Both the position numbers and the translations under genes were made by a program. A stretch of DNA of 64,000 bases from Escherichia coli (GTDB taxonomy: Bacteria; Pseudomonadota; Gammaproteobacteria; Enterobacterales; Enterobacteriaceae), in assembly GCF_048403405.1 (NCBI RefSeq), contig NZ_CP183129.1. One strand, 5' to 3'. This document shows, piece by piece, positions 1,318-61,795 of this stretch. The notes below the pieces were generated by a model. The model made no database searches. It was given only the letters and a program-made list of their open reading frames with translations, and was not told the DNA's origin. Position 1 is the first letter of the stretch. Every line of letters starts with the position of its first letter.

Positions 1318-1448
1318 TCAAACGACTCGGGGTGCCCTTCTGCGTGAAGGCTGAGAAATACCCGTATCACCTGATCTGGATAATGCCAGCGTAGGGAAGT
1401 CACGGACCACCAGGTCATTGCTTCTTCACGTTATGGCAGGAGCAAACT
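1318..1448 (+). promoter_or_regulatory. TPP (thi-box) riboswitch in the thiM leader
   Basis: Sequence ...CGACUCGGGGUGCCCUUCUGCGUGAAGGCUGAGAAAUACCCGUAUCACCUGAUCUGGAUAAUGCCAGCGUAGGGAAGUC... matches the E. coli thiM TPP aptamer as recalled; it ends at the thiM SD and ATG (1449). Confidence 0.85.
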
Positions 1449-2237
1449 ATGCAAGTCGACCTGCTGAGTTCCGCGCAATCTGCGCACGCGTTACATCTTT
1501 TTCACCAACATTCCCCTCTTGTGCACTGCATGACCAACGATGTGGTGCAAACCTTTACTGCCAATACCTTGCTGGCGCTCGGTGCATCCCCAGCGATGGT
1601 TATCGAAACCGAAGAGGCCAGTCAGTTTGCGGCTATCGCCAGTGCGTTGCTGATTAACGTTGGCACGCTGACGCAGCCACGCGCACAGGCGATGCGTGCC
1701 GCCATTGAACAGGCAAAACGCTCTCAAACACCCTGGACGCTTGATCCAGTAGCGGTGGGTGCACTCGATTATCGCCGCCGTTTTTGTCTGGAACTTCTGT
1801 CTCATAAGCCAACCGCCATACGTGGTAATGCTTCGGAAATCATGGCATTAGCTGGCGTTGCTAATGGTGGACGGGGAGTGGATACCACTGACGCCGCAGC
1901 TAATGCGATACCCGCTGCACAAACACTGGCACGGGAAACTGGCGCAATCGTCGTGGTCACTGGCGAGATGGATTATGTTACCGATGGACATCGTATCATT
2001 GGTATTCACGGTGGCGATCCGTTAATGACCAAAGTGGTAGGAACTGGCTGTGCATTATCGGCGGTTGTCGCTGCCTGTTGTGCGCTACCAGGCGATACGC
2101 TGGAAAATATCGCATCTGCCTGTCACTGGATGAAACAAGCCGGAGAACGCGCAGTCGCCAGTAGCGAGGGGCCAGGCAGTTTTGTTCCACATTTCCTTGA
2201 TGCGCTCTGGCAATTGACGCCGGAGGTGCAGGCATGA
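1449..2237 (+). CDS. thiM: Hydroxyethylthiazole kinase, 262 aa
   Basis: ORF track; recognised ThiM sequence; stop overlaps thiD start (ATGA). Confidence 0.9.
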
Positions 2238-3034
2238 AACGAATTAACGCTCTGACGATTGCCGGTACTGATCCGAGTGGTGGTGCGGGGATTCAGGCCG
2301 ATCTTAAAACCTTCTCGGCACTTGGCGCTTATGGTTGCTCAGTGATTACTGCACTGGTGGCGCAAAATACCCGTGGCGTACAGTCGGTGTATCGCATTGA
2401 GCCTGATTTTGTCGCCGCCCAGCTCGATTCGGTGTTCAGCGATGTGCGAATCGACACCACTAAAATCGGTATGTTGGCGGAAACCGATATTGTTGAAGCG
2501 GTGGCAGAAAGGTTGCAACGTTATCAGATCAAAAACGTGGTACTTGATACCGTTATGCTGGCAAAAAGCGGCGACCCGCTGCTTTCACCTTCGGCGGTTG
2601 CTACGCTGCGCAGTCGATTATTGCCACAGGTTTCATTAATAACGCCAAACTTGCCCGAAGCTGCCGCCTTGCTCGACGCGCCACACGCGCGCACCGAACA
2701 GGAAATGCTGGAACAAGGGCGATCGCTGTTGGCGATGGGCTGTGGCGCAGTGCTAATGAAAGGTGGTCATCTGGATGATGAGCAAAGCCCGGACTGGCTG
2801 TTTACCCGCGAGGGTGAACAACGGTTTACCGCACCGCGCATTATGACCAAAAACACCCACGGCACTGGTTGTACACTCTCTGCGGCGTTGGCTGCACTAC
2901 GCCCGCGCCATACAAACTGGGCAGACACCGTCCAGGAGGCAAAAAGCTGGCTTTCATCGGCGTTAGCCCAGGCCGACACGCTGGAAGTTGGTCACGGTAT
3001 TGGTCCGGTTCACCACTTCCACGCGTGGTGGTGA
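2234..3034 (+). CDS. thiD: Hydroxymethylpyrimidine/phosphomethylpyrimidine kinase, 266 aa
   Basis: ORF track; recognised ThiD sequence; translationally coupled to thiM. Confidence 0.9.
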
Positions 3035-3098
3035 GCACCTTACTATAGCTGCTTTGGTTATTGTCAGTATTTGGCGCTGACATTCAGGGATGAAACCA

Positions 3099-3917
3099 AT
3101 GCAGCTGAGAATCATCAGTCGAAAAAAATTCACCGCTTTATTATGCGCTCTTGGGCTAATTTCCATCGTTGCAATTTATCCGCGTCAGACGGTGAATTTT
3201 TTCTACTCGACAGCAATTCAGATTAAAGACTACATCCACTTCTACGGTTATCGCCCGGTTAAATCTTTCGCTATTCGCATTCCTGCCAGTTACACCATTC
3301 ATGGTATTGATGTTTCACGCTGGCAGGAGCGAATCGACTGGCAGCGGGTGGCAAAAATGCGCGACAACGGTATTCTCTTGCAGTTTGCCTTTATCAAGGC
3401 GACGGAAGGCGAAAAGCTGGTGGACCCCTATTTTTCGCGTAACTGGCAACTAAGCCGCGAAAATGGCCTGCTGCGCGGGGCGTATCATTATTTCTCCCCG
3501 TCGGTATCCGCTTCAGTTCAGGCGCGATTATTTCTGCAAACGGTGGATTTTGCCCACGGCGATCTCCCTGCCGTGCTGGACGTAGAAGAACGGGGAAAAT
3601 TATCGGCAAAAGAATTACGCAAGCGGGTAAGTCAGTGGCTAAAAATGGTCGAAAAACGCACGGGAAAAAAGCCAATTATTTACTCAGGAGCCGTTTTTTA
3701 TCACACGAATCTGGCGGGCTATTTTAATGAATATCCGTGGTGGGTGGCTCACTATTATCAACGTCGCCCGGACAATGACGGCATGGCCTGGCGCTTCTGG
3801 CAGCATTCCGACCGTGGACAGGTAGATGGCATTAATGGTCCGGTGGATTTTAATGTGTTTAATGGCACGGTGGAGGAGTTGCAGGCATTCGTTGATGGGA
3901 TTAAAGAAACGCCTTAA
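3099..3917 (+). CDS. yegX: GH25-family lysozyme-like muramidase with N-terminal hydrophobic anchor
   Basis: ORF 3090..3917; matches E. coli YegX as recalled; start placed at the second Met (MQLRII) to give 272 aa, start uncertain. Confidence 0.75.
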   Translation: MQLRIISRKKFTALLCALGLISIVAIYPRQTVNFFYSTAIQIKDYIHFYGYRPVKSFAIRIPASYTIHGIDVSRWQERIDWQRVAKMRDNGILLQFAFIKATEGEKLVDPYFSRNWQLSRENGLLRGAYHYFSPSVSASVQARLFLQTVDFAHGDLPAVLDVEERGKLSAKELRKRVSQWLKMVEKRTGKKPIIYSGAVFYHTNLAGYFNEYPWWVAHYYQRRPDNDGMAWRFWQHSDRGQVDGINGPVDFNVFNGTVEELQAFVDGIKETP

Positions 3918-17109: not shown

Positions 17110-17427
17110 ATGAAAAAGATAGCTGCTATATCATTAATTAGTATTTTTCTTATGTCTGGTTGTGCTGTGCATAATGATGAAACAAGTATCGGTAAATTTG
17201 GTCTTGCATATAAAAGTAATATTCAGCGTAAACTCGATAACCAATACTACACCGAAGCCGAAGCTTCTTTAGCCAGGGGCAGAATTTCTGGTGCAGAAAA
17301 TATAGTAAAAAATGATGCAGCTCATTTCTGTGTTACTCAGGGCAAAAAAATGCAGATAGTTGACCTGAAGACAGAAGGTGCAGGATTACATGGCGTCGCT
17401 CGTCTGACATTCAAATGTGGAGAGTGA
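17110..17427 (+). CDS. yegR: Small putative lipoprotein, 105 aa
   Basis: ORF 17050..17427; start placed at MKKIAAISL with lipobox LMSGC; AT-rich gene. Confidence 0.7.
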   Translation: MKKIAAISLISIFLMSGCAVHNDETSIGKFGLAYKSNIQRKLDNQYYTEAEASLARGRISGAENIVKNDAAHFCVTQGKKMQIVDLKTEGAGLHGVARLTFKCGE

Positions 17428-17584: not shown

Positions 17585-17611
17585 AAAAAATAAGCCCGTG
17601 TAAGGGAGATT
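17585..17611. other. Phage P2 attB core-like sequence (aaaaaataagcccgtgtaagggagatt) at the cyaR 3' end, unoccupied
   Basis: 27-mer read from sequence; matches the P2 attachment core as I recall it; no prophage genes flank it here. Confidence 0.5.
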
Positions 17612-17671
17612 ACACAGGCTAAGGAGGTGGTTCCTGGTACAGCTAGCATTTTATGGGTTATGTTTTTCAGC
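17585..17671 (-). ncRNA. cyaR: CyaR (RyeE) Hfq-dependent sRNA
   Basis: Reverse complement reads GCUGAAAAACAUAACCCAUAAAAUGCUAGCUGUACCAGGAACCACCUCCUUAGCCUGUGUAAUCUCCCUUACACGGGCUUAUUUUUU, matching E. coli CyaR as recalled. Confidence 0.85.
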
Positions 17672-17755
17672 GAAACGGATGATAACCTTAATAAATGCAG
17701 CTGTATGTGATCGGTTTCTAAGAATTTTCCATCCGGGAAAAATAATCGAAATTAA

Positions 17756-29300: not shown

Positions 29301-29512
29301 GCAGAGGTCATGACATCCGGGCTCGCACCTGGGTAGAGCGTGACTACCTGAATGGTCGGATAGTCCACTTCCGGCAGCGCCGAAACGGGCAGGGCTCTAT
29401 AACCGATAATCCCAGCGAGTAAGATCGCCACCATCAGCAGCGTGGTGGCGACAGGACGCATAATAAACAGGCGCGACGGGCCGCCTGTGCTGCTCGGGGG
29501 TAACACCTGCAT
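26390..29512 (-). CDS. mdtB: RND multidrug efflux pump subunit MdtB, 1040 aa
   Basis: ORF track; AcrB-like paralogue of mdtC. Confidence 0.9.
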
Positions 29513-30759
29513 CAGGAGCGTGCTCCTTTTTTCGCGTATTCGCGGCTGGTGGCTTTCTCTTCCGGAGTGGTGGCGCTCTGGGCTTCCACTACTTCCACTT
29601 TCGCCCCTTCGGTCAGGCGATCAATGCCGTCTGTCACTACGCGGTCGCCCGCAGAAATACCTGCGCGGATCACCACTTTCTGACTGTCCTGAATGCCCGG
29701 CGTCACCAGATGTTTGCTGACCTTGTTTTCGCTATTCAGCACCCAGACAAAATGGCCTTCGTTGCCCATTTGCAGAGCGGCGGTGGGGATCACCACGGCG
29801 TTTTGTTCGGTGTCGACTAACATACGCGCGTTAACAAACTGATTGGGAAACAGCGCATCATCCTGATTATTAAAGCGTGCTTTCACTTTAATCGTACCGG
29901 TAGTGGCATCGATTTGGTTATCGAGGCTTAACAGCGTGCCTTCACTTAATTTCTTCGAGTTGGTGCGATCCCAGGCTTCTACCACCAGCGGTTTTCCGGT
30001 TTTTTGCGCCTGTACTACGGTAGCGATATCGCTTTCCGGCAGGGTAAAGAGCAAATCGATAGGATGCGTCTGGGTGATCACCACAATCCCGGTGGTATCA
30101 CCACTGGAGATTTGGTTACCAACATCAACCTGCTTGAGACCAACGCGACCATCGATTGGTGCGGTGATGCGGCTCCAGTCGAGCTGCAGCTGCGCGCTGG
30201 CGACGCTTGCTTCATCAGCCTTAATGGTGCCTTCGGTTTCACTGACCAGCGCCTGTTGGGCATCCAGCTCCTGGCGGGAGACAAGATTGGTTTTTGCCAG
30301 TTGTTGATAACGCGCCAGGTCACGGCGGGCGTTGGCAAGCGTGGCTTTATCTTTTGCCAGTTGGCCCTGGGCTTGTGCTAATGCAACTTTGAACTGGCTT
30401 GGGTCAATTTCTGCCAGTAAATCGCCTGCTTTGACCTGCTGGCCTTCCTGGAAATGTAACGCCATCAGTTGACCGTCCACGCGGCTGCGCACCGTAACGG
30501 TATTAGCGGCGGTAATGGTGCCAAGCCCGGTGAGATAACGTGGCACAGCTTGTTCTACGGCAGTCGCCGCCTGAACCGGGGCTAATGGGCCGGCACGCAT
30601 ACCACGGCGACCACCCGCTGGCGATTGCTGCGCTTGTTTCGTCGCCCCTGGGGCTGCACTCTGGGAGTCATTGCGGCCTTGCCAGAACCAGAATGCGGCG
30701 ATGGCGGCGATAACCAACACGATTACGATTACCCAACGGGATTTATAACTGCCTTTCAT
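29512..30759 (-). CDS. mdtA: Membrane fusion (periplasmic adaptor) protein MdtA, 415 aa
   Basis: ORF 29512..30906; start moved to MKGSYKSRW to match MdtA length as recalled. Confidence 0.85.
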
Positions 30760-30812
30760 CGTTAAGAGTTTCTCTTCCTGAAACGTTTCACGGAATGATA
30801 CTAGTGTAGCCA

Positions 30813-30830
30813 GCCAATAAGGGAGAAAAA
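30813..30830 (-). promoter_or_regulatory. BaeR box upstream of mdtA (TTTTTCTCCCTTATTGGC on the minus strand)
   Basis: 17/18 match to the BaeR consensus TTTTTCTCCATDATTGGC as recalled; about 55 bp upstream of the mdtA start. Confidence 0.6.
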
Positions 30831-30989
30831 TGGAGGAATTATGAAACACTGTCGGGAATCGTCTGAATGACGGGCACATTTGCGAGCACGCATCCAGTAA
30901 TAACACATGAAACTATTTTATCTGCAAGTTAGCGATAGACTGCTTGCATGGCGAAAGGAGGTAAGCCGCCGTTTTCAGCGGGACGCTGA

Positions 30990-31128
30990 AACGGGAAAGC
31001 CCCTCCCGAGGAAGGGGCCTTAAATAAGGAAAGGGTCATGATGAAGCTACTCATCATCGTGGTGCTCTTAGTGATTAGCTACCCAGCATACTAAGACTAC
31101 CAGGGCGGGGGAAACCCCGCTCTACCCT
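30990..31128 (-). ncRNA. Sib-family antisense sRNA (type I antitoxin), copy 1; ends approximate
   Basis: Minus-strand promoter-like TTGACA-17-TACTTT near 31135..31165 and hairpin gcccct/aggggc plus U-rich tail near 30995..31018; fully overlaps ibs copy 1. Confidence 0.5.
31038..31094 (+). CDS. Ibs-family type I toxin peptide, copy 1 (MMKLLIIVVLLVISYPAY)
   Basis: 18-codon ORF with SD aaggaaagggtc upstream; Ibs-like hydrophobic peptide. Confidence 0.75.
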   Translation: MMKLLIIVVLLVISYPAY

Positions 31129-31317
31129 CACTCCTGAAAGTATGCCTTCACGATAAGATTGTCAATCTGCAGGCTTTGCAGTCTGCGATCCTGCCAGCAA
31201 ATATTCTTTGCGAGACGTTACGCAATAATCACACTGGAAACTATTTTATCCGCAAGTCAGCGATAGACTGCATACAGGGCGAAAGGAGGTAAGCCGACGA
31301 TTTCAGCGGGACGCTGA

Positions 31318-31456
31318 AACGGGAAAGCCCCTCCCGAGGAAGGGGCCTTAAATAAGGAAAGGGTCATGATGAAGATACTCATCATCGTGGTGCTCTTAGT
31401 GATTAGCTACCCAGCATACTAAGACTACCAGGGCGGGGGAAACCCCGCTCTACCCT
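31318..31456 (-). ncRNA. Sib-family antisense sRNA, copy 2; ends approximate
   Basis: Same elements at equivalent positions in repeat unit 2. Confidence 0.5.
31366..31422 (+). CDS. Ibs-family type I toxin peptide, copy 2 (MMKILIIVVLLVISYPAY)
   Basis: Same position within repeat unit 2. Confidence 0.75.
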   Translation: MMKILIIVVLLVISYPAY

Positions 31457-31646
31457 CACTCCTGAAAGTATGCCTTCACGATAAGATTGTCAATCCGCAG
31501 GCTTTGCAGTCTGCGATCCTGCCAGCAAATATTCTTTGCGAGTCGTTACGCAATAATCACAGAGGAAACTATTTTGGTCACGCGTTAGCGATAGACTGCA
31601 TTCAGGGCGAAAGGAGGTAAGCCGACGATTTCAGCGGGACGCTGAA

Positions 31647-31790
31647 ACGGGAAACCCTCTCCCGGAGAAGAGGGCTTTTAATAAGGAAAGGGTTATGATG
31701 AAGCACGTCATCATACTGGAGATACTCTTAGTGATTAGCTTCCAGGCTTACTAAGAACACCAGGGGGAGGGAGAAACCTCTCCCTAACCC
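31647..31790 (-). ncRNA. Sib-family antisense sRNA, copy 3; ends approximate
   Basis: Equivalent position in unit 3; minus-strand TTGACA-17-TAATTT promoter-like element near 31800..31830. Confidence 0.45.
31695..31754 (+). CDS. Ibs-family type I toxin peptide, copy 3 (MMKHVIILEILLVISFQAY), IbsA-like but with an internal Glu
   Basis: 19-codon ORF in repeat unit 3; GAG codon read directly from sequence. Confidence 0.7.
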   Translation: MMKHVIILEILLVISFQAY

Positions 31791-31974
31791 TCACTCCTGA
31801 AATTATGTCACTCCGCCCTTAGTGTCAATCGACGGCTCTCCGTTCTTGCGAGGCGAATAGCAAAATTTTCTGCGCCGCCGGGCCTAATTCTGAAAGTTTC
31901 TTCGTTTGCTCTTATTTCATTATTGCAATCGGTATGATACCGGGCCTCAATAATTCTCTAAGAAAGGATTTCTT

Positions 31975-32634
31975 ATGAGCGAACAAATCACGTTTGCCAC
32001 CAGCGATTTTGCCAGTAACCCGGAACCACGTTGCCCCTGCATTTTGCTGCTGGATGTTTCTGGTTCTATGAACGGTAGACCTATTAATGAACTTAACGCC
32101 GGATTGGTTACCTTTCGCGATGAGCTGCTTGCCGATTCGCTGGCCTTAAAAAGAGTGGAACTCGGCATTGTGACGTTCGGCCCGGTGCATGTGGAACAAC
32201 CCTTTACCAGCGCCGCTAATTTTTTCCCGCCCATCCTGTTTGCCCAGGGCGATACACCAATGGGCGCTGCCATTACCAAAGCCCTGGATATGGTAGAGGA
32301 GCGGAAACGTGAGTATCGTGCAAATGGTATTTCGTATTATCGCCCGTGGATTTTCCTGATCACCGATGGCGCTCCAACCGATGAGTGGCAGGCTGCCGCC
32401 AACAAAGTGTTTCAGGGGGAAGAAGATAAGAAGTTTGCCTTCTTTTCCATCGGTGTTCAGGGGGCGGATATGAAGACTTTGGCACAAATCAGCGTTCGTC
32501 AGCCTTTGCCACTGCAGGGATTACAATTCCGTGAACTGTTTAGCTGGTTATCCAGTTCGCTGCGTTCGGTTTCCCGCTCCACGCCGGGAACGGAAGTTGT
32601 GCTGGAAGCGCCAAAAGGCTGGACGTCAGTGTGA
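31975..32634 (+). CDS. yegL: von Willebrand factor A (TerY-like) domain protein with MIDAS motif, 219 aa
   Basis: ORF track; DVSGS MIDAS motif at nt 32053..32067; matches YegL as recalled. Confidence 0.8.
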
Positions 32635-33392
32635 GCTGGCGTCTGGTCTATGCATCAACCGTTGGAACGTCGCACATCAGCGCGGACTTGCCTTGCCAGG
32701 ATGCCTGCCAGATGCAGGTTGCCTGGTTAAATGACCAGCAGCCATTATTGTCGGTATTTGTCGCCGATGGCGCAGGTAGCGTCTCGCAGGGTGGCGAAGG
32801 TGCGGAGCTTGCCGTTAATGAAGCGATGGCTTATATGATGCAAAAATTGCAGGGCGGGGAATTGGGGCTTAATGATGTCCTCGCAACGGATATTGTGCTG
32901 ACCGTTCGTCAGCGACTTTTTGCCGAGGCGGAAGCCAAAGAATTAGCTGTTCGCGATTTTGCCTGCACGTTTATGGGATTGATTTCATCAGCTAATGGCA
33001 CCCTGATTATGCAGATTGGCGATGGCGGCGTGGTGGTAGATTTGGGGCACGGTCTGCAACTGCCGCTCACGCCGATGGTAGGTGAATATGCCAATATGAC
33101 ACACTTCATTACTGATGAAGATGCCGTTTCCAGACTGGAAACTTTCACCAGCACTGAGCGTGCGCATAAAGTTGCAGCATTTACGGATGGTATCCAGCGG
33201 CTGGCGTTAAATATGCTGGATAATTCTCCCCATGTGCCTTTCTTTACCCCGTTTTTCAATGGGCTGGCGTCAGCAACGCAGGAACAACTCGATTTATTAC
33301 CTGAATTGTTAAAGCAGTTTTTGTCCAGCCCGGCGGTAAACGAGCGTACGGATGATGATAAAACGTTGGCACTGGCGCTGTGGTTACCATGA
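32631..33392 (+). CDS. yegK: PP2C-family Ser/Thr protein phosphatase, 253 aa, GTG start
   Basis: ORF track; GTGA overlap with the yegL stop; PP2C-like Asp-rich motifs (VADGAGS, GDGG); YegK (PphC) as recalled. Confidence 0.8.
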
Positions 33393-35329
33393 AACCCACT
33401 TTATATACTGCTACTGGTGAGTGCGTTACGCCAGGCTGTGAACTGGGCAAAGGTGGCGAAGGCGCGGTTTATGATATCGAGGAGTTTGTCGATAGCGTCG
33501 CCAAGATTTATCACACGCCGCCACCCGCCTTAAAACAGGACAAACTTGCCTTTATGGCTGCGACAGCTGACGCACAGTTGCTGAATTATGTCGCCTGGCC
33601 GCAGGCAACGCTTCACGGTGGACGAGGCGGAAAAGTTATCGGTTTTATGATGCCAAAAGTTTCTGGTAAAGAACCGATTCATATGATCTATAGCCCGGCA
33701 CATCGTCGCCAGAGTTACCCTCATTGTGCGTGGGATTTTCTACTCTATGTTGCGCGTAATATTGCTTCATCTTTTGCTACGGTTCACGAGCACGGGCATG
33801 TCGTGGGTGACGTAAACCAGAACAGCTTTATGGTAGGCCGTGACAGCAAAGTGGTGTTGATTGATAGCGACTCCTTTCAGATTAACGCCAACGGCACACT
33901 GCATTTATGCGAAGTCGGCGTGTCGCATTTTACGCCGCCAGAGCTGCAAACCTTGCCATCATTTGTCGGCTTTGAACGCACCGCGAATCACGATAATTTT
34001 GGCCTTGCGTTGCTGATTTTTCACGTCTTGTTTGGTGGTCGGCATCCTTATTCCGGTGTACCGCTTATCTCTGATGCGGGTAATGCGCTGGAGACGGATA
34101 TTGCCCATTTCCGTTATGCCTACGCGTCAGATAATCAGCGACGTGGTTTAAAACCGCCGCCACGATCTATTCCGCTGTCGATGTTACCGGGCGATGTTGA
34201 AGCCATGTTTCAGCAGGCATTCACGGAAAGTGGCGTGGCAACCGCGCGTCCGACGGCAAAAGCGTGGGTAGCGGCACTTGATTTACTACGCCAACAGTTA
34301 AAGAAATGTACCGTTTCGGCAATGCATGTTTACCCCGGTCATTTGACTGACTGCCCGTGGTGTGCGCTGGATAATCAAGGCGTTATCTATTTTATTGATC
34401 TCGGCGAAGAGGTCATTACCACCGGCGGTGATTTTGTGCTGGCGAAAGTCTGGGCAATGGTGATGGCGTCAGTAGCACCACCAGCATTGCAACTGCCATT
34501 ACCCGATCATTTCCAACCGACTGGCAGGCCGCTTCCTTTAGGCCTGTTACGGCGTGAATACATCATTCTGATTGAGATCGCACTGTCAGCGTTATCGCTG
34601 CTGCTTTGCGGCCTTCAGGTAGAACCGCGTTATATCATTTTGGTTCCCGTGCTGGCGGCTATCTGGATTATTGGCAGCCTGACAAGCAAAGCGTACAAAG
34701 CAGAAATCCAGCAACGTCGTGAGGCGTTTAATCGCGCGAAAATGGACTATGACCATTTAGTAAGCCAGATCCAACGGCTGGGCGGGCTGGAAGGTTTTAT
34801 CGCCAAACGGGCGATGATCGAAAAAATGAAGGACGAAATTCTCGGGTTACCGGAAGAGGAGAAACGCGCTCTGGCAGCACTTCATGACACTGCAAGGGAA
34901 CGGCAGAAGCAGAAGTTTCTGGAGGGATTTTTTATTGATGTTGCCTCTATTCCCGGCGTTGGCCCTGCGCGTAAAGCGGCGTTACGGTCTTTTGGTATTG
35001 AAACAGCCGCAGATGTTACCCGTCGTGGCGTTAAGCAAGTGAAAGGGTTTGGCGACCATCTGACCCAGGCGGTTATCGACTGGAAAGCGAGTTGTGAACG
35101 CCGTTTTGTGTTCAGGCCGAACGAAGCGGTAACGCCTGCAGACAGACAAGCGGTACTGACTAAAATGGCCGCCAAACGACATCGGCTGGAATCGACGTTG
35201 ACTGTCGGCGCGACAGAGTTGCAGCGATTCCGCCTTCAAGCTCCAGCACGGACCATGCCGTTGATGGAACCGTTACGTCAGGCGGCAGAAAAACTGGCTC
35301 AGGCGCAGGCTGAATTAAGCCGTTGCTGA
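33380..35329 (+). CDS. yegI: Atypical membrane Ser/Thr protein kinase with C-terminal helix-hairpin-helix region, about 646-649 aa
   Basis: ORF track; start may be 33380, 33383 or 33389, all overlapping the yegK stop; Gly-rich loop GKGGEGAVY, VAKIY Lys, HGHVVGDVNQN catalytic-loop-like, DSDSF; two predicted TM helices; HhH-like IPGVGPARKAALRSFGI. Confidence 0.8.
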   Translation: MVTMKPTLYTATGECVTPGCELGKGGEGAVYDIEEFVDSVAKIYHTPPPALKQDKLAFMAATADAQLLNYVAWPQATLHGGRGGKVIGFMMPKVSGKEPIHMIYSPAHRRQSYPHCAWDFLLYVARNIASSFATVHEHGHVVGDVNQNSFMVGRDSKVVLIDSDSFQINANGTLHLCEVGVSHFTPPELQTLPSFVGFERTANHDNFGLALLIFHVLFGGRHPYSGVPLISDAGNALETDIAHFRYAYASDNQRRGLKPPPRSIPLSMLPGDVEAMFQQAFTESGVATARPTAKAWVAALDLLRQQLKKCTVSAMHVYPGHLTDCPWCALDNQGVIYFIDLGEEVITTGGDFVLAKVWAMVMASVAPPALQLPLPDHFQPTGRPLPLGLLRREYIILIEIALSALSLLLCGLQVEPRYIILVPVLAAIWIIGSLTSKAYKAEIQQRREAFNRAKMDYDHLVSQIQRLGGLEGFIAKRAMIEKMKDEILGLPEEEKRALAALHDTARERQKQKFLEGFFIDVASIPGVGPARKAALRSFGIETAADVTRRGVKQVKGFGDHLTQAVIDWKASCERRFVFRPNEAVTPADRQAVLTKMAAKRHRLESTLTVGATELQRFRLQAPARTMPLMEPLRQAAEKLAQAQAELSRC

Positions 35330-46876: not shown

Positions 46877-47344
46877 AGTAAGTACAAAACCTATTCGTTG
46901 TATGACAAATGTCACAATTCGATCATGGATAAATCGGGGCAAAAATGCAATGTTGCAGCACTATTTATCTCATATTATTTGAGGGTAATAACCTCACATT
47001 ACCCCTGAATTAAAAGTGGTAATAATAAAACATTATTTAAGAAATATCGCATGTGGAGACACTATATTAAATATTGTCAACCTAAAGAAACTCCTAAAAA
47101 CCATATTGAATGACACTTAATATAATTCTTAAAAATAGCCAATTGCCGAATTGTTACCTTGCCTGCTATTCCGTTAGCTGTAACACTTCCTCCTGCATTA
47201 TTGGAGAGCCAATATTCAATTACCATAATGTCACCTTATATTCGGAAGTTAATTTCCGCAATAACCCTTTCTCATCAACGACTGTATGTTGAGAGGGTTT
47301 TAAAAATTAAGCTAAATCAGTGTATTGGTAGCTAAAAAGCCAGG

Positions 47345-47356
47345 GGCGGTAGCGTG
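47345..47356 (+). promoter_or_regulatory. ops element (GGCGGTAGCGTG) within a JUMPStart-like leader upstream of wza
   Basis: Exact ops 12-mer read from sequence about 180 bp upstream of the wza ATG; RfaH-dependent antitermination site in polysaccharide operons. Confidence 0.7.
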
Positions 47357-61695: not shown

Positions 61696-61795
61696 CCGTT
61701 GAATAATCAACCGGATTAATTCTCCGGTAAATAACGAAAAAACAAAATTGGCCGTTTCGGTCAGGGCCAACTATTGCCTGAAAAAGGGTAACGAC

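What the first reader, a model, noticed from the sequence alone, without database searches (positions are those of the whole stretch)
30910..31895. Three tandem ibs/sib type I toxin-antitoxin units between mdtA and yegL
A repeat of about 329 bp occurs three times head-to-tail. Each unit has an 18-19 codon hydrophobic Ibs toxin ORF on the plus strand and, on the minus strand, a promoter-like element and terminator consistent with an antisense Sib sRNA spanning the ORF. K-12 has two copies at this locus (sibA/sibB) as I recall, so this is a copy-number expansion.
Basis: partly seen in the sequence, partly recalled or inferred. Interest (0 to 1): 0.55.

Follow-up and report, generated by a model that had tools for sequence, protein, structure and literature searches.

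The report
Three tandem Ibs/Sib toxin-antitoxin units
This is the well-known E. coli ibs/sib small-toxin and antisense-RNA locus between mdtA and yegL, here with three repeat units, an arrangement seen in roughly 40% of complete E. coli genomes and already annotated in public records, so it is ordinary.

Summary
A 328-nt unit occurs three times head to tail (30878-31862) between mdtA (minus strand) and yegL (plus strand). Each unit carries an 18-19 codon Ibs ORF on the plus strand. On the minus strand each carries a full-length match to Rfam SIB_RNA (141-146 bits; threshold 56), with a perfect TTGACA -35 hexamer and a terminator hairpin.

The window is E. coli and is 100% identical here to strain GN02461, where RefSeq already annotates all three Ibs genes. 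K-12 has two units, O157:H7 three and BL21(DE3) four. In evenly spaced samples of 5,422 records, about 40% have three units, about 43% two and about 13% four.

In about 30 other Enterobacteriaceae species the same site beside mdtA holds a single unit. Arrays of three or four are therefore a derived expansion within E. coli. Three versus two cannot be polarised from K-12 alone.

Two local details stand out. Units 1 and 2 give predicted Sib RNAs that differ at 1 of 142 nt, outside both published target-recognition domains, so they are probably cross-protecting duplicates. Unit 3 is ibsA with a rare V9E change in the hydrophobic core (15 of 4,489 genomes). This is a known system and a known polymorphism, of low interest.

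The parts
30878..31862 (.). Whole tandem array of three units of about 328 nt (unit 1: 30878-31205; unit 2: 31206-31533; unit 3: 31535-31862)
   Evidence: TRF period 328, 2.8 copies; direct-repeat families D1-D5; 20-unit alignment A1
31038..31094 (+). ibs ORF of unit 1: 18-aa hydrophobic toxin MMKLLIIVVLLVISYPAY (RefSeq WP_001386901.1), with Shine-Dalgarno AAGGA upstream
   Evidence: annotated 'type I toxin-antitoxin system Ibs family toxin' in the identical record NZ_CP095533
30992..31133 (-). Predicted Sib RNA of unit 1 (about 140 nt, SibB-like), antisense to the whole ibs ORF, its start codon and its Shine-Dalgarno sequence. The ends are approximate: the start is one of the Gs at 31131-31134, and the 3' end follows the terminator hairpin at 30999-31018 (stem read directly).
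   Evidence: Rfam SIB_RNA 141.6 bits; fold -61.7 kcal/mol, z = -3.8, with a terminal hairpin followed by U-rich UUUCCCG; sibA/sibB start with G in K-12 (PMC12956327)
31137..31165 (-). Sib promoter of unit 1: -35 TTGACA at 31165-31160; -10 candidates CATACT (31144-31139, 15-nt spacer) or TACTTT (31142-31137, 17-nt spacer)
   Evidence: direct reading; the TTGACA columns are invariant in all 20 aligned units; not flagged by the generic scan, which needs a 16-18 nt spacer and at least 4 of 6 matches
31366..31422 (+). ibs ORF of unit 2: MMKILIIVVLLVISYPAY (WP_012767742.1). It differs from unit 1 by one base (31375 A versus 31047 C), giving L4I.
31320..31461 (-). Predicted Sib RNA of unit 2, 141/142 identical to the Sib RNA of unit 1. 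The single difference lies in the hairpin loop opposite codon 4. The -35 TTGACA is at 31493-31488.
   Evidence: Rfam 140.8 bits; fold z = -4.0; pairwise comparison; promoter coordinates
31695..31754 (+). ibs ORF of unit 3: 19-aa IbsA variant MMKHVIILEILLVISFQAY (WP_072146903.1). K-12 IbsA has V at position 9 (GTG to GAG at 31719-31721).
   Evidence: exact allele in 15 of 4,489 genomes that have an A-type unit
31648..31796 (-). Predicted Sib RNA of unit 3 (SibA-like, about 149 nt). The -35 TTGACA is at 31828-31823 and the -10 candidate CATAAT at 31807-31802. The terminator hairpin is at 31655-31674.
   Evidence: Rfam 145.9 bits; fold z = -3.9; hairpin also seen in the scan; coordinates
29512..30759 (-). 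mdtA (flanking gene, divergent from the ibs ORFs); not part of the array
31975..32634 (+). yegL, vWA-domain protein (flanking gene); not part of the array

Best explanation
The region is a tandem array of three ibs/sib type I toxin-antitoxin modules of E. coli. Two are B-type (ibsB/sibB-like) units and one is an A-type (ibsA/sibA) unit.

In each unit the plus strand encodes an 18-19 residue hydrophobic membrane peptide (Ibs). The minus strand is predicted to be transcribed from a strong promoter into an RNA of about 140 nt (Sib). This RNA is perfectly complementary to the ibs ribosome-binding site, start codon and whole ORF.

By analogy with the K-12 units, Sib pairs with the ibs mRNA starting at two recognition regions. 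TRD1 pairs inside the ORF and TRD2 pairs at the translation-initiation region. The pairing blocks translation and leads to mRNA degradation, so the toxin is made only if Sib falls. Free Ibs depolarises the membrane and lowers ATP.

Shown here: the anatomy, family membership by covariance model, identity to annotated E. coli loci, and the copy-number distribution. Inferred: transcription of each unit, toxicity of each peptide, and cross-repression.

In this strain the predicted Sib RNAs of units 1 and 2 differ by 1 of 142 nt, outside both recognition regions. I therefore infer that they repress each other's mRNA and act as redundant duplicates. Unit 3 has distinct recognition regions. The array varies from two to four units (with several allele orders) among E. 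coli, most simply through unequal crossing-over and gene conversion between units. The three-unit state is common and already annotated.
For: - Repeat: period 328, 2.8 copies.
- Three full-length SIB_RNA matches at 141-146 bits against a threshold of 56.
- Three Ibs ORFs with Shine-Dalgarno sequences.
- Sib folds are stable (z about -3.8 to -4.0) with terminal hairpins.
- The -35 hexamer is a perfect TTGACA in each unit.
- The 1,301-nt stretch 30700-32000 is 100% identical to strain GN02461, where three Ibs-family toxins are annotated between mdtA and yegL.
- K-12 has 2 units, O157:H7 has 3, BL21(DE3) and others have 4.
- Evenly spaced samples give 16/40 and 23/60 clear three-unit loci.
- Fozo et al. 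2010 list 6 Ibs in EDL933, and Han et al. 2010 state five Ibs/Sib pairs in K-12 (PMC2887945; PMC2943612).
- Mechanism comes from Han et al. 2010 (PMC2943612) and the review PMC8309996. Ibs action on ATP and membrane potential comes from bioRxiv 10.1101/2025.05.26.656083.
- The Sib RNAs of units 1 and 2 differ at 1 position. Units 1/2 versus unit 3 differ at 33-34 positions, with longest identical runs of 16 and 14 nt.
Against: - No expression data are available for this strain.
- The generic promoter/terminator scan did not flag the Sib promoters or two of the three terminators, because the spacers and U-tracts are non-canonical.
- I could not find a convincing sigma-70 promoter for the ibs mRNAs by eye.
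- The V9E change may make the unit 3 toxin inactive.
- Cross-repression between units 1 and 2 is inferred from SibC/SibD work, not tested on B-type units.
Confidence: 0.9

Rival explanations
1. One unit is decaying. Unit 3 is an antitoxin-only or dead-toxin module, because IbsA V9E places a charged residue in the middle of the transmembrane helix. Functionally the locus would then be two active modules plus an orphan SibA.
For: The GTG to GAG change is at 31719-31721. Overall Kyte-Doolittle hydropathy falls from 1.98 to 1.58, and for residues 5-14 from 4.20 to 3.43. The review of the IbsC mutagenesis says toxicity needs the central hydrophobic residues (residues 6-19) and at least 10 hydrophobic residues (PMC8309996). 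The allele is rare, 15 of 4,489 genomes, and loses the PGAP product name 'toxin IbsA', although the gene is still labelled ibsA. K-12 cells lacking sibA are viable, so ibsA is already the least constrained pair (PMC2943612).
Against: The ORF is intact. K3 and L11 are kept; the equivalent positions (a positively charged residue 3 and Leu11) were needed in Salmonella IbsA. SibA and its promoter are intact and score highest of the three units. A single Glu can be tolerated in short transmembrane peptides. No toxicity data exist for this allele.
Confidence: 0.35
2. The third unit is an assembly or sequencing artefact, that is, a mis-resolved repeat rather than a real third copy.
For: Tandem repeats of about 330 nt can be mis-assembled from short reads. 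Units 1 and 2 are nearly identical in their cores.
Against: Units 1 and 2 differ at 21 positions, 19 of them in the 5' 95 nt, so they are distinguishable. The identical three-unit sequence is present in a complete genome. Eight further records are at least 99% identical, and roughly 40% of 5,422 complete-genome records have three units, in several allele orders.
Confidence: 0.01
3. The extra B-type unit is maintained for a distinct function: a differently regulated toxin (L4 versus I4) with its own promoter context, rather than being a neutral, redundant duplicate.
For: The two units differ mostly upstream of the inferred ibs mRNA start (19 of 21 differences lie in 30878-30972 versus 31206-31300), which is where an ibs promoter or regulatory region would sit. 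Duplicated type I loci are described as evolutionarily stable (PMC2887945). Han et al. suggest that different ibs genes may be differentially regulated.
Against: Most of those 5' differences are at the edge of the array, where unit 1 abuts unique mdtA-side sequence. The copy number and allele order vary freely among strains. E24377A carries two identical IbsB peptides. N-terminal residues of IbsC other than V5 were dispensable for toxicity.
Confidence: 0.15

Closest known systems
E. coli K-12 ibsB/sibB-ibsA/sibA locus (SIB or 'QUAD' repeats) between mdtA and yegL
   Same: Same chromosomal site, same flanking genes and orientation, and same unit length and anatomy. The Sib promoter region around the transcription start (ACCCTCACTCCTGAAA) is identical. 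Unit 3 differs from the K-12 ibsA/sibA unit at 6 of about 330 positions, and unit 1 differs from the K-12 ibsB/sibB unit at 14.
   Different: K-12 has two units and this window has three. The B-type peptides here end in YPAY rather than FPAY. IbsA here carries V9E.
Three- and four-unit arrays of other E. coli strains (O157:H7, E24377A, G3X16-2; BL21(DE3), ES4, '17a')
   Same: Same locus and the same kind of array, with the units annotated by RefSeq as Ibs family toxins. The cores of units 1, 2 and 3 match units 1, 3 and 4 of the four-unit strain '17a' at 0, 0 and 2 differences.
   Different: The order and combination of alleles differ. For example, O157 has IL..YPAY, WI..FPAY, IbsA, and E24377A has IbsB, IbsB, IbsA. 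Only 9 records are at least 99% identical to this window's arrangement.
Single ibs/sib unit about 195-225 nt upstream of mdtA in most sampled Citrobacter, Kluyvera, Pseudocitrobacter and Salmonella (arizonae, diarizonae) species
   Same: Orthologous position next to mdtA and the same unit anatomy. The peptides are 19 aa and IbsA-like, for example MMKHVIILVILLVISLPAY.
   Different: Single copy (two in P. faecalis). No yegL was found on the far side in these loci. The 18-aa B-type peptide was seen only in Escherichia.
Other tandemly duplicated chromosomal type I systems (ldr/rdl LDR repeats; zorO/orzO-zorP/orzP)
   Same: A small hydrophobic toxin plus an RNA antitoxin, duplicated within one intergenic region, with strain-to-strain copy-number variation (PMC2887945; PMC11264685).
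   Different: Unrelated sequences. Sib overlaps the entire ORF in cis, whereas OrzO pairs with the 5' UTR. [quoted passage not shown]

Membership tests
Sib antitoxin RNA (Rfam RF00113 SIB_RNA) | Sequence and structure match to the family covariance model at or above the curated gathering score (56 bits), over the full model | tested here: met
   Three matches cover model positions 1-147 of 147, at 145.9, 141.6 and 140.8 bits (repeated over the whole window).
Sib antitoxin RNA (Rfam RF00113 SIB_RNA) | [quoted passage not shown] | tested here: met
   The Sib matches at 31023-31165, 31351-31493 and 31680-31828 (minus strand) contain the ORFs at 31038-31094, 31366-31422 and 31695-31754 (plus strand) and the AAGGA Shine-Dalgarno sequence upstream of each.
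Sib antitoxin RNA (Rfam RF00113 SIB_RNA) | Own promoter and Rho-independent terminator giving an RNA of about 110-150 nt | tested here: met
   Each unit has a perfect TTGACA, followed by CATACT or CATAAT. Each has a terminal GC-rich hairpin followed by a U-rich stretch, and the predicted length is 142-149 nt. Caveat: the generic consensus scan did not report the promoters or two of the three terminators. The spacing is 15 nt to the better -10 hexamer.
Sib antitoxin RNA (Rfam RF00113 SIB_RNA) | The transcript is actually made and represses its cognate ibs | not testable with these tools
   This needs Northern blots or RNA-seq and co-transformation assays. It has been shown for the K-12 units (PMC2943612; PMC12956327).
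Ibs type I toxin family | An 18-19 residue peptide with an MMK/R N-terminus, an uninterrupted hydrophobic core and a C-terminal aromatic tail (..S[YF]xAY) | tested here: met
   Units 1 and 2 fit fully. Unit 3 fits except for E9 inside the core. The same proteins are named 'type I toxin-antitoxin system Ibs family toxin' in the identical RefSeq record. HMM libraries could not be used because the peptides are under 20 aa.
Ibs type I toxin family | A positively charged residue at position 3 and Leu at position 11 (required for Salmonella IbsA activity) | tested here: met
   All three peptides have K3 and L11. The requirement comes from bioRxiv 10.1101/2025.05.26.656083.
Ibs type I toxin family | Growth arrest or membrane depolarisation when over-expressed | not testable with these tools
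This is doubtful for the V9E variant of unit 3.
Cognate-specific Sib/ibs pairs (Han et al. 2010 model) | Each Sib differs from its paralogues in TRD1 and TRD2, so that it represses only its own ibs | tested here: not met
   This holds for unit 3 against units 1 and 2 (33-34 differences; longest shared runs 16 and 14 nt). It does not hold between units 1 and 2, whose Sib RNAs differ at one base outside both regions. This bears on specificity, not on family membership.

The most novel reading that the evidence does not exclude
The mdtA-yegL array may be a recombination hot spot where RNA-level specificity cassettes are shuffled.

Among 15 B-type units from 7 loci (this window and six other strains), the sense/antisense overlap is almost invariant except for two short blocks. 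One block is codon 4 and the first base of codon 5, opposite a Sib hairpin loop. The other is codons 13-17, the TRD1 target. Between the two commonest versions of the second block, the changes are mostly synonymous. Different strains carry different combinations and orders of these blocks.

This would mean selection acts on which Sib recognises which ibs rather than on the peptide. This strain would then be an unusual state: two adjacent units share one specificity, and the third toxin (IbsA V9E) is on the way to becoming an orphan-antitoxin unit.
Probability: 0.3. Interest if true: 0.3.

Novelty: already known. Interest (0 to 1): 0.1.

Why it matters
It matters little beyond correct annotation. 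The Sib RNA genes are not annotated in the RefSeq records I inspected, although the Ibs ORFs are. A genome scan should therefore label three sib genes here.

The practical point is that K-12 is not representative for this locus. Most sampled E. coli genomes have either two or three units, and BL21(DE3) has four. Units with near-identical Sib RNAs can back each other up, so single-unit deletions may be phenotypically silent in such strains.

The rare IbsA V9E allele is a ready-made natural test of whether a charged residue in the hydrophobic core abolishes Ibs toxicity.

Tried and rejected
- The generic sigma-70 and terminator scan of 30760-31975 found only the mdtA-side promoter-like site and one hairpin. 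It misses the Sib promoters because the best -10 hexamer sits 15 nt from the -35 hexamer. I therefore relied on direct reading, the Rfam alignment and the folds.
- I looked by eye for an ibs promoter upstream of the inferred mRNA start. That start is about 18 nt beyond the Sib 3' end, by analogy with ibsC. I found no convincing -35/-10 pair, and the ibs promoter is left unresolved.
- The two primary papers I most wanted are not held in the library: Fozo et al. 2008 (PMC2597788) and Mok et al. 2010 (PMC3009890), along with the MMBR review (PMC2593563). I used Han 2010, Fozo 2010 and a 2021 review instead.
- HMM family libraries need at least 20 residues, so the 18-19 aa peptides could not be scanned.
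I used two evenly spaced samples (40 and 60 rows) and checked ambiguous row types by fetching loci.
- The genome-contig scan returned 84 stretches and did not include E. fergusonii or the main E. coli representative. It required an exact 18-mer, so absence from that list is not evidence of absence.
- The assembly-artefact reading was rejected (see rivals).
- A short ORF at 17312-17359 that matched my Ibs regular expression (MMQLISVLLRAKKCR) has no Sib match opposite it, so I dismissed it as chance.
Full report
**1. The observation**

The repeat is real. Tandem Repeats Finder reports a single array at 30898-31807 with period 328, 2.8 copies, 90% matches and score 1439. The ungapped repeat finder places three copies in register with spacings of 328 and 328-335 nt. 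Copies 1 and 2 are 93% identical over 300 nt, and copy 3 is 72-80% identical to copy 1. I take the units as 30878-31205, 31206-31533 and 31535-31862.

Each unit has a short plus-strand ORF preceded by AAGGAAAGGGT:

| Unit | ORF | Peptide |
|---|---|---|
| 1 | 31038-31094 | MMKLLIIVVLLVISYPAY |
| 2 | 31366-31422 | MMKILIIVVLLVISYPAY |
| 3 | 31695-31754 | MMKHVIILEILLVISFQAY |

On the minus strand, Rfam's SIB_RNA model (RF00113) matches three times over its full length. The matches are at 31023-31165, 31351-31493 and 31680-31828, scoring 141.6, 140.8 and 145.9 bits against a gathering score of 56. There are no other Sib matches in the 64-kb window. The flanks are mdtA (29512-30759, minus strand) and yegL (31975-32634, plus strand).

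**2. Anatomy of a unit**

Read on the minus strand, each unit starts with a perfect TTGACA, at 31165-31160, 31493-31488 and 31828-31823. This is followed by CATACT (units 1 and 2) or CATAAT (unit 3) after 15 nt, or by TACTTT/TAATTT after 17 nt. A run GGAGTGAGGG follows.

K-12 sibA and sibB are reported to start with G (PMC12956327), and the sequence around the start is invariant in all 20 units I aligned. I therefore place the starts within 31131-31134, 31459-31462 and 31794-31797.

The predicted RNAs are 142, 142 and 149 nt. They fold to -61.7, -61.7 and -56.6 kcal/mol (z = -3.8, -4.0, -3.9), with a closing stem, internal hairpins and a terminal GC-rich hairpin followed by UUUCCCG.

The generic promoter/terminator scan did not flag the promoters or two of the three terminators, because the spacers and U-tracts are non-canonical. 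I could not identify a convincing ibs promoter. By analogy with ibsC, whose mRNA extends 18 nt beyond the SibC 3' end (PMC2943612), the ibs mRNAs would start near 30975, 31303 and 31631. That placement is an inference.

**3. What organism, and is this arrangement known?**

The 1,301-nt stretch 30700-32000 matches 5,419 of 5,426 complete E. coli genomes. It is 100% identical to strain GN02461 (NZ_CP095533), where RefSeq annotates three Ibs-family toxin genes between mdtA and yegL. The Sib RNA genes themselves are not annotated in the records I inspected.

Unit counts in named strains:

| Strain | Units |
|---|---|
| K-12 MG1655 | 2 (IbsB, IbsA) |
| O157:H7 | 3 |
| E24377A | 3 |
| G3X16-2 | 3 |
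| BL21(DE3) | 4 |
| ES4 | 4 |
| '17a' | 4 |

Some strains have an IS421 or IS150 element inserted between two units.

I took two evenly spaced samples down the ranked list. Clear three-unit loci make up 16 of 40 and 23 of 60 rows. Two-unit loci make up about 17-18 of 40 and 26-27 of 60. Four-unit loci make up 5 of 40 and 8 of 60 (ambiguous row types checked). That gives roughly 40%, 43% and 13%.

Published counts fit. Fozo et al. 2010 list 6 Ibs in EDL933, 7 in S. boydii and 7 in E. fergusonii (PMC2887945), and Han et al. 2010 state five Ibs/Sib pairs in K-12 (PMC2943612). Fozo et al. also describe type I loci as evolving by lineage-specific duplication. [quoted passage not shown]

**4. Which unit is extra, and how the array varies**

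I aligned 20 units from the window and six other strains (A1). Units 1 and 2 are both B-type: an 18-aa peptide and a 161-nt core. Unit 3 is A-type: a 19-aa peptide.

Units 1, 2 and 3 have cores 0, 0 and 2 differences from units 1, 3 and 4 of the four-unit strain '17a'. However, the 5' part of unit 2 is closer to other units, such as O157 unit 3 with 2 differences. The units are therefore mosaics.

Three-unit loci come in several allele orders:

| Strain | Order of toxins |
|---|---|
| This window | LL..YPAY, IL..YPAY, IbsA-V9E |
| O157 | IL..YPAY, WI..FPAY, IbsA |
| G3X16-2 | LL..WPAY, IbsB, IbsA |
| E24377A | IbsB, IbsB, IbsA |

About 17% of genomes (937 of 5,426) gave no match to an A-type unit. 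In the two such strains I examined, the last unit is a B-type core with an A-type 3' flank. Only 9 records are at least 99% identical to the window's arrangement.

All this fits repeated unequal crossing-over and gene conversion between units. That mechanism is an inference.

Within the region where Sib and ibs overlap, variation among the 15 B-type units is confined almost entirely to two blocks. One is alignment columns 172-175 (window 31047-31050: codon 4 and the first base of codon 5), opposite a Sib hairpin loop. The other is columns 201-216 (window 31073-31088), opposite the region that corresponds by position to TRD1 of SibC.

In the second block the two commonest versions differ by four synonymous changes and one Y/F change (GTG ATT AGC TAC CCA GCA versus GTC ATA AGC TTC CCG GCT). 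Han et al. had already noted that TRD1 and TRD2 lie in the most variable parts of the five K-12 paralogues.

**5. Direction of change**

I scanned one genome per species for the conserved Shine-Dalgarno/start 18-mer, then ran tblastn with MdtA and YegL and nhmmer with the unit core.

- A single ibs/sib unit lies upstream of mdtA in about 30 species of Citrobacter, Kluyvera, Pseudocitrobacter and Salmonella (arizonae, diarizonae). The gap to mdtA is about 195-225 nt in most of them. These units encode 19-aa IbsA-like peptides.
- P. faecalis has two units.
- E. albertii has one.
- Escherichia sp. MOD1-EC7003 has one, lying between mdtA and yegL.
- E. whittamii has at least one; the locus is cut off 245 nt beyond the unit.
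- Escherichia sp. E1V33 has two.
- The 18-aa B-type peptide appears only in Escherichia.

Arrays of three or four units are thus a derived expansion within E. coli. Whether K-12's two units reflect loss or this strain's three reflect gain cannot be decided from these data. BL21(DE3), a close relative of K-12, carries K-12's two units plus two more on the mdtA side.

**6. Mechanism**

The mechanism is taken from the characterised K-12 and Salmonella units.

- Sib RNAs pair with ibs mRNAs starting at TRD1 (within the ORF) and TRD2 (at the translation-initiation region). Repression leads to degradation of the ibs mRNA, and the fully paired duplex is an RNase III substrate in vitro. Repression is specific to the cognate pair, except for ibsA (PMC2943612).
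- IbsC over-expression depolarises the membrane within minutes. Toxicity needs the central hydrophobic residues and the C-terminus (review PMC8309996).
- Salmonella IbsA lowers ATP by binding the a and b subunits of the Fo sector of ATP synthase, and it needs His3 and Leu11 (bioRxiv 10.1101/2025.05.26.656083).

Applied here:

- All three peptides have K3 and L11.
- The Sib RNAs of units 1 and 2 differ at one position of 142 (G versus U at about +87), in a hairpin loop that Han et al. regard as non-productive for recognition. Both recognition regions are identical. I infer full cross-repression, so units 1 and 2 are redundant.
- Units 1 and 2 differ from unit 3 at 33-34 positions, with longest shared runs of 16 and 14 nt. 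This is below the 22-25 bp helices that sufficed in the SibC/SibD swap experiments. Unit 3 is probably a separate specificity. The known exception is that ibsA may be recognised by other Sib RNAs.

**7. The one unusual detail**

Unit 3 encodes IbsA with Glu instead of Val at position 9 (GTG to GAG at 31719-31721). The exact 71-nt allele occurs in 15 of 4,489 genomes that have an A-type unit. PGAP keeps the gene name ibsA but drops the product name 'toxin IbsA'.

Hydropathy of residues 5-14 falls from 4.20 to 3.43. Given the reported need for the hydrophobic core, the toxin may be weakened. This is untested.

**8. Verdict**

The feature is a textbook type I toxin-antitoxin array in a common, already annotated copy-number state. 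Novelty: already known. Interest: low. The residual points of mild interest are the near-identical pair of units, the V9E allele, and the block-wise shuffling of the variable segments across strains.

Noticed in passing
window 31719-31721 (unit 3 ORF 31695-31754): IbsA carries V9E, a charged residue in the middle of the hydrophobic helix. The exact allele is present in only 15 of 4,489 E. coli genomes with an A-type unit, and PGAP withholds the product name 'toxin IbsA' for it.
   Followed up: partly
alignment A1 columns 172-175 and 201-216 (window 31047-31050 and 31073-31088, and the equivalent positions in units 2 and 3): Among B-type units from seven loci (this window and six other strains), variation inside the Sib/ibs overlap is confined to two short blocks. 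One is opposite a Sib hairpin loop and the other is opposite the TRD1-equivalent region. These blocks occur in different combinations and orders in different strains, and the changes between the two commonest versions of the second block are mostly synonymous.
   Followed up: partly
L004 (NZ_CP029180) 218-1330; L094 (NZ_CP173591) 2190-3559: In some E. coli strains an IS421 or IS150 element sits between the ibsB-type and ibsA units, splitting the array.
   Followed up: no
L006, L007 (strains 317 and Ecol_244); About 17% of complete E. coli genomes gave no match to an A-type (ibsA) unit. In the two I examined, the last unit is a B-type core joined to the A-type 3' flank next to yegL, as expected from a crossover between units.
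   Followed up: partly
L011, L015-L088 (genome-contig loci), about 195-225 nt upstream of mdtA in most: A single ibs/sib unit is conserved next to mdtA across Citrobacter, Kluyvera, Pseudocitrobacter and Salmonella arizonae/diarizonae. It encodes 19-aa IbsA-like peptides. The 18-aa B-type peptide was seen only in Escherichia.
   Followed up: partly
window 31975-35329: yegL, pphC and a 649-aa ORF (yegI kinase in the identical record) are contiguous and overlapping here. K-12 has yegJ immediately after pphC instead.
   Followed up: no
window 17588-17673 (-), 1318-1414 (+), 47318-47356 (+), 61742-61791 (+): Other Rfam matches above threshold in the window are the CyaR sRNA, a TPP riboswitch, a JUMPstart element and an algC RNA motif.
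   Followed up: no
window 30838-30867 (-): The only promoter-like site the generic scan reported in the intergenic region is TTCAGA-18-CATAAT on the minus strand, upstream of mdtA and just left of the array. It may be an mdtA promoter.
   Followed up: no
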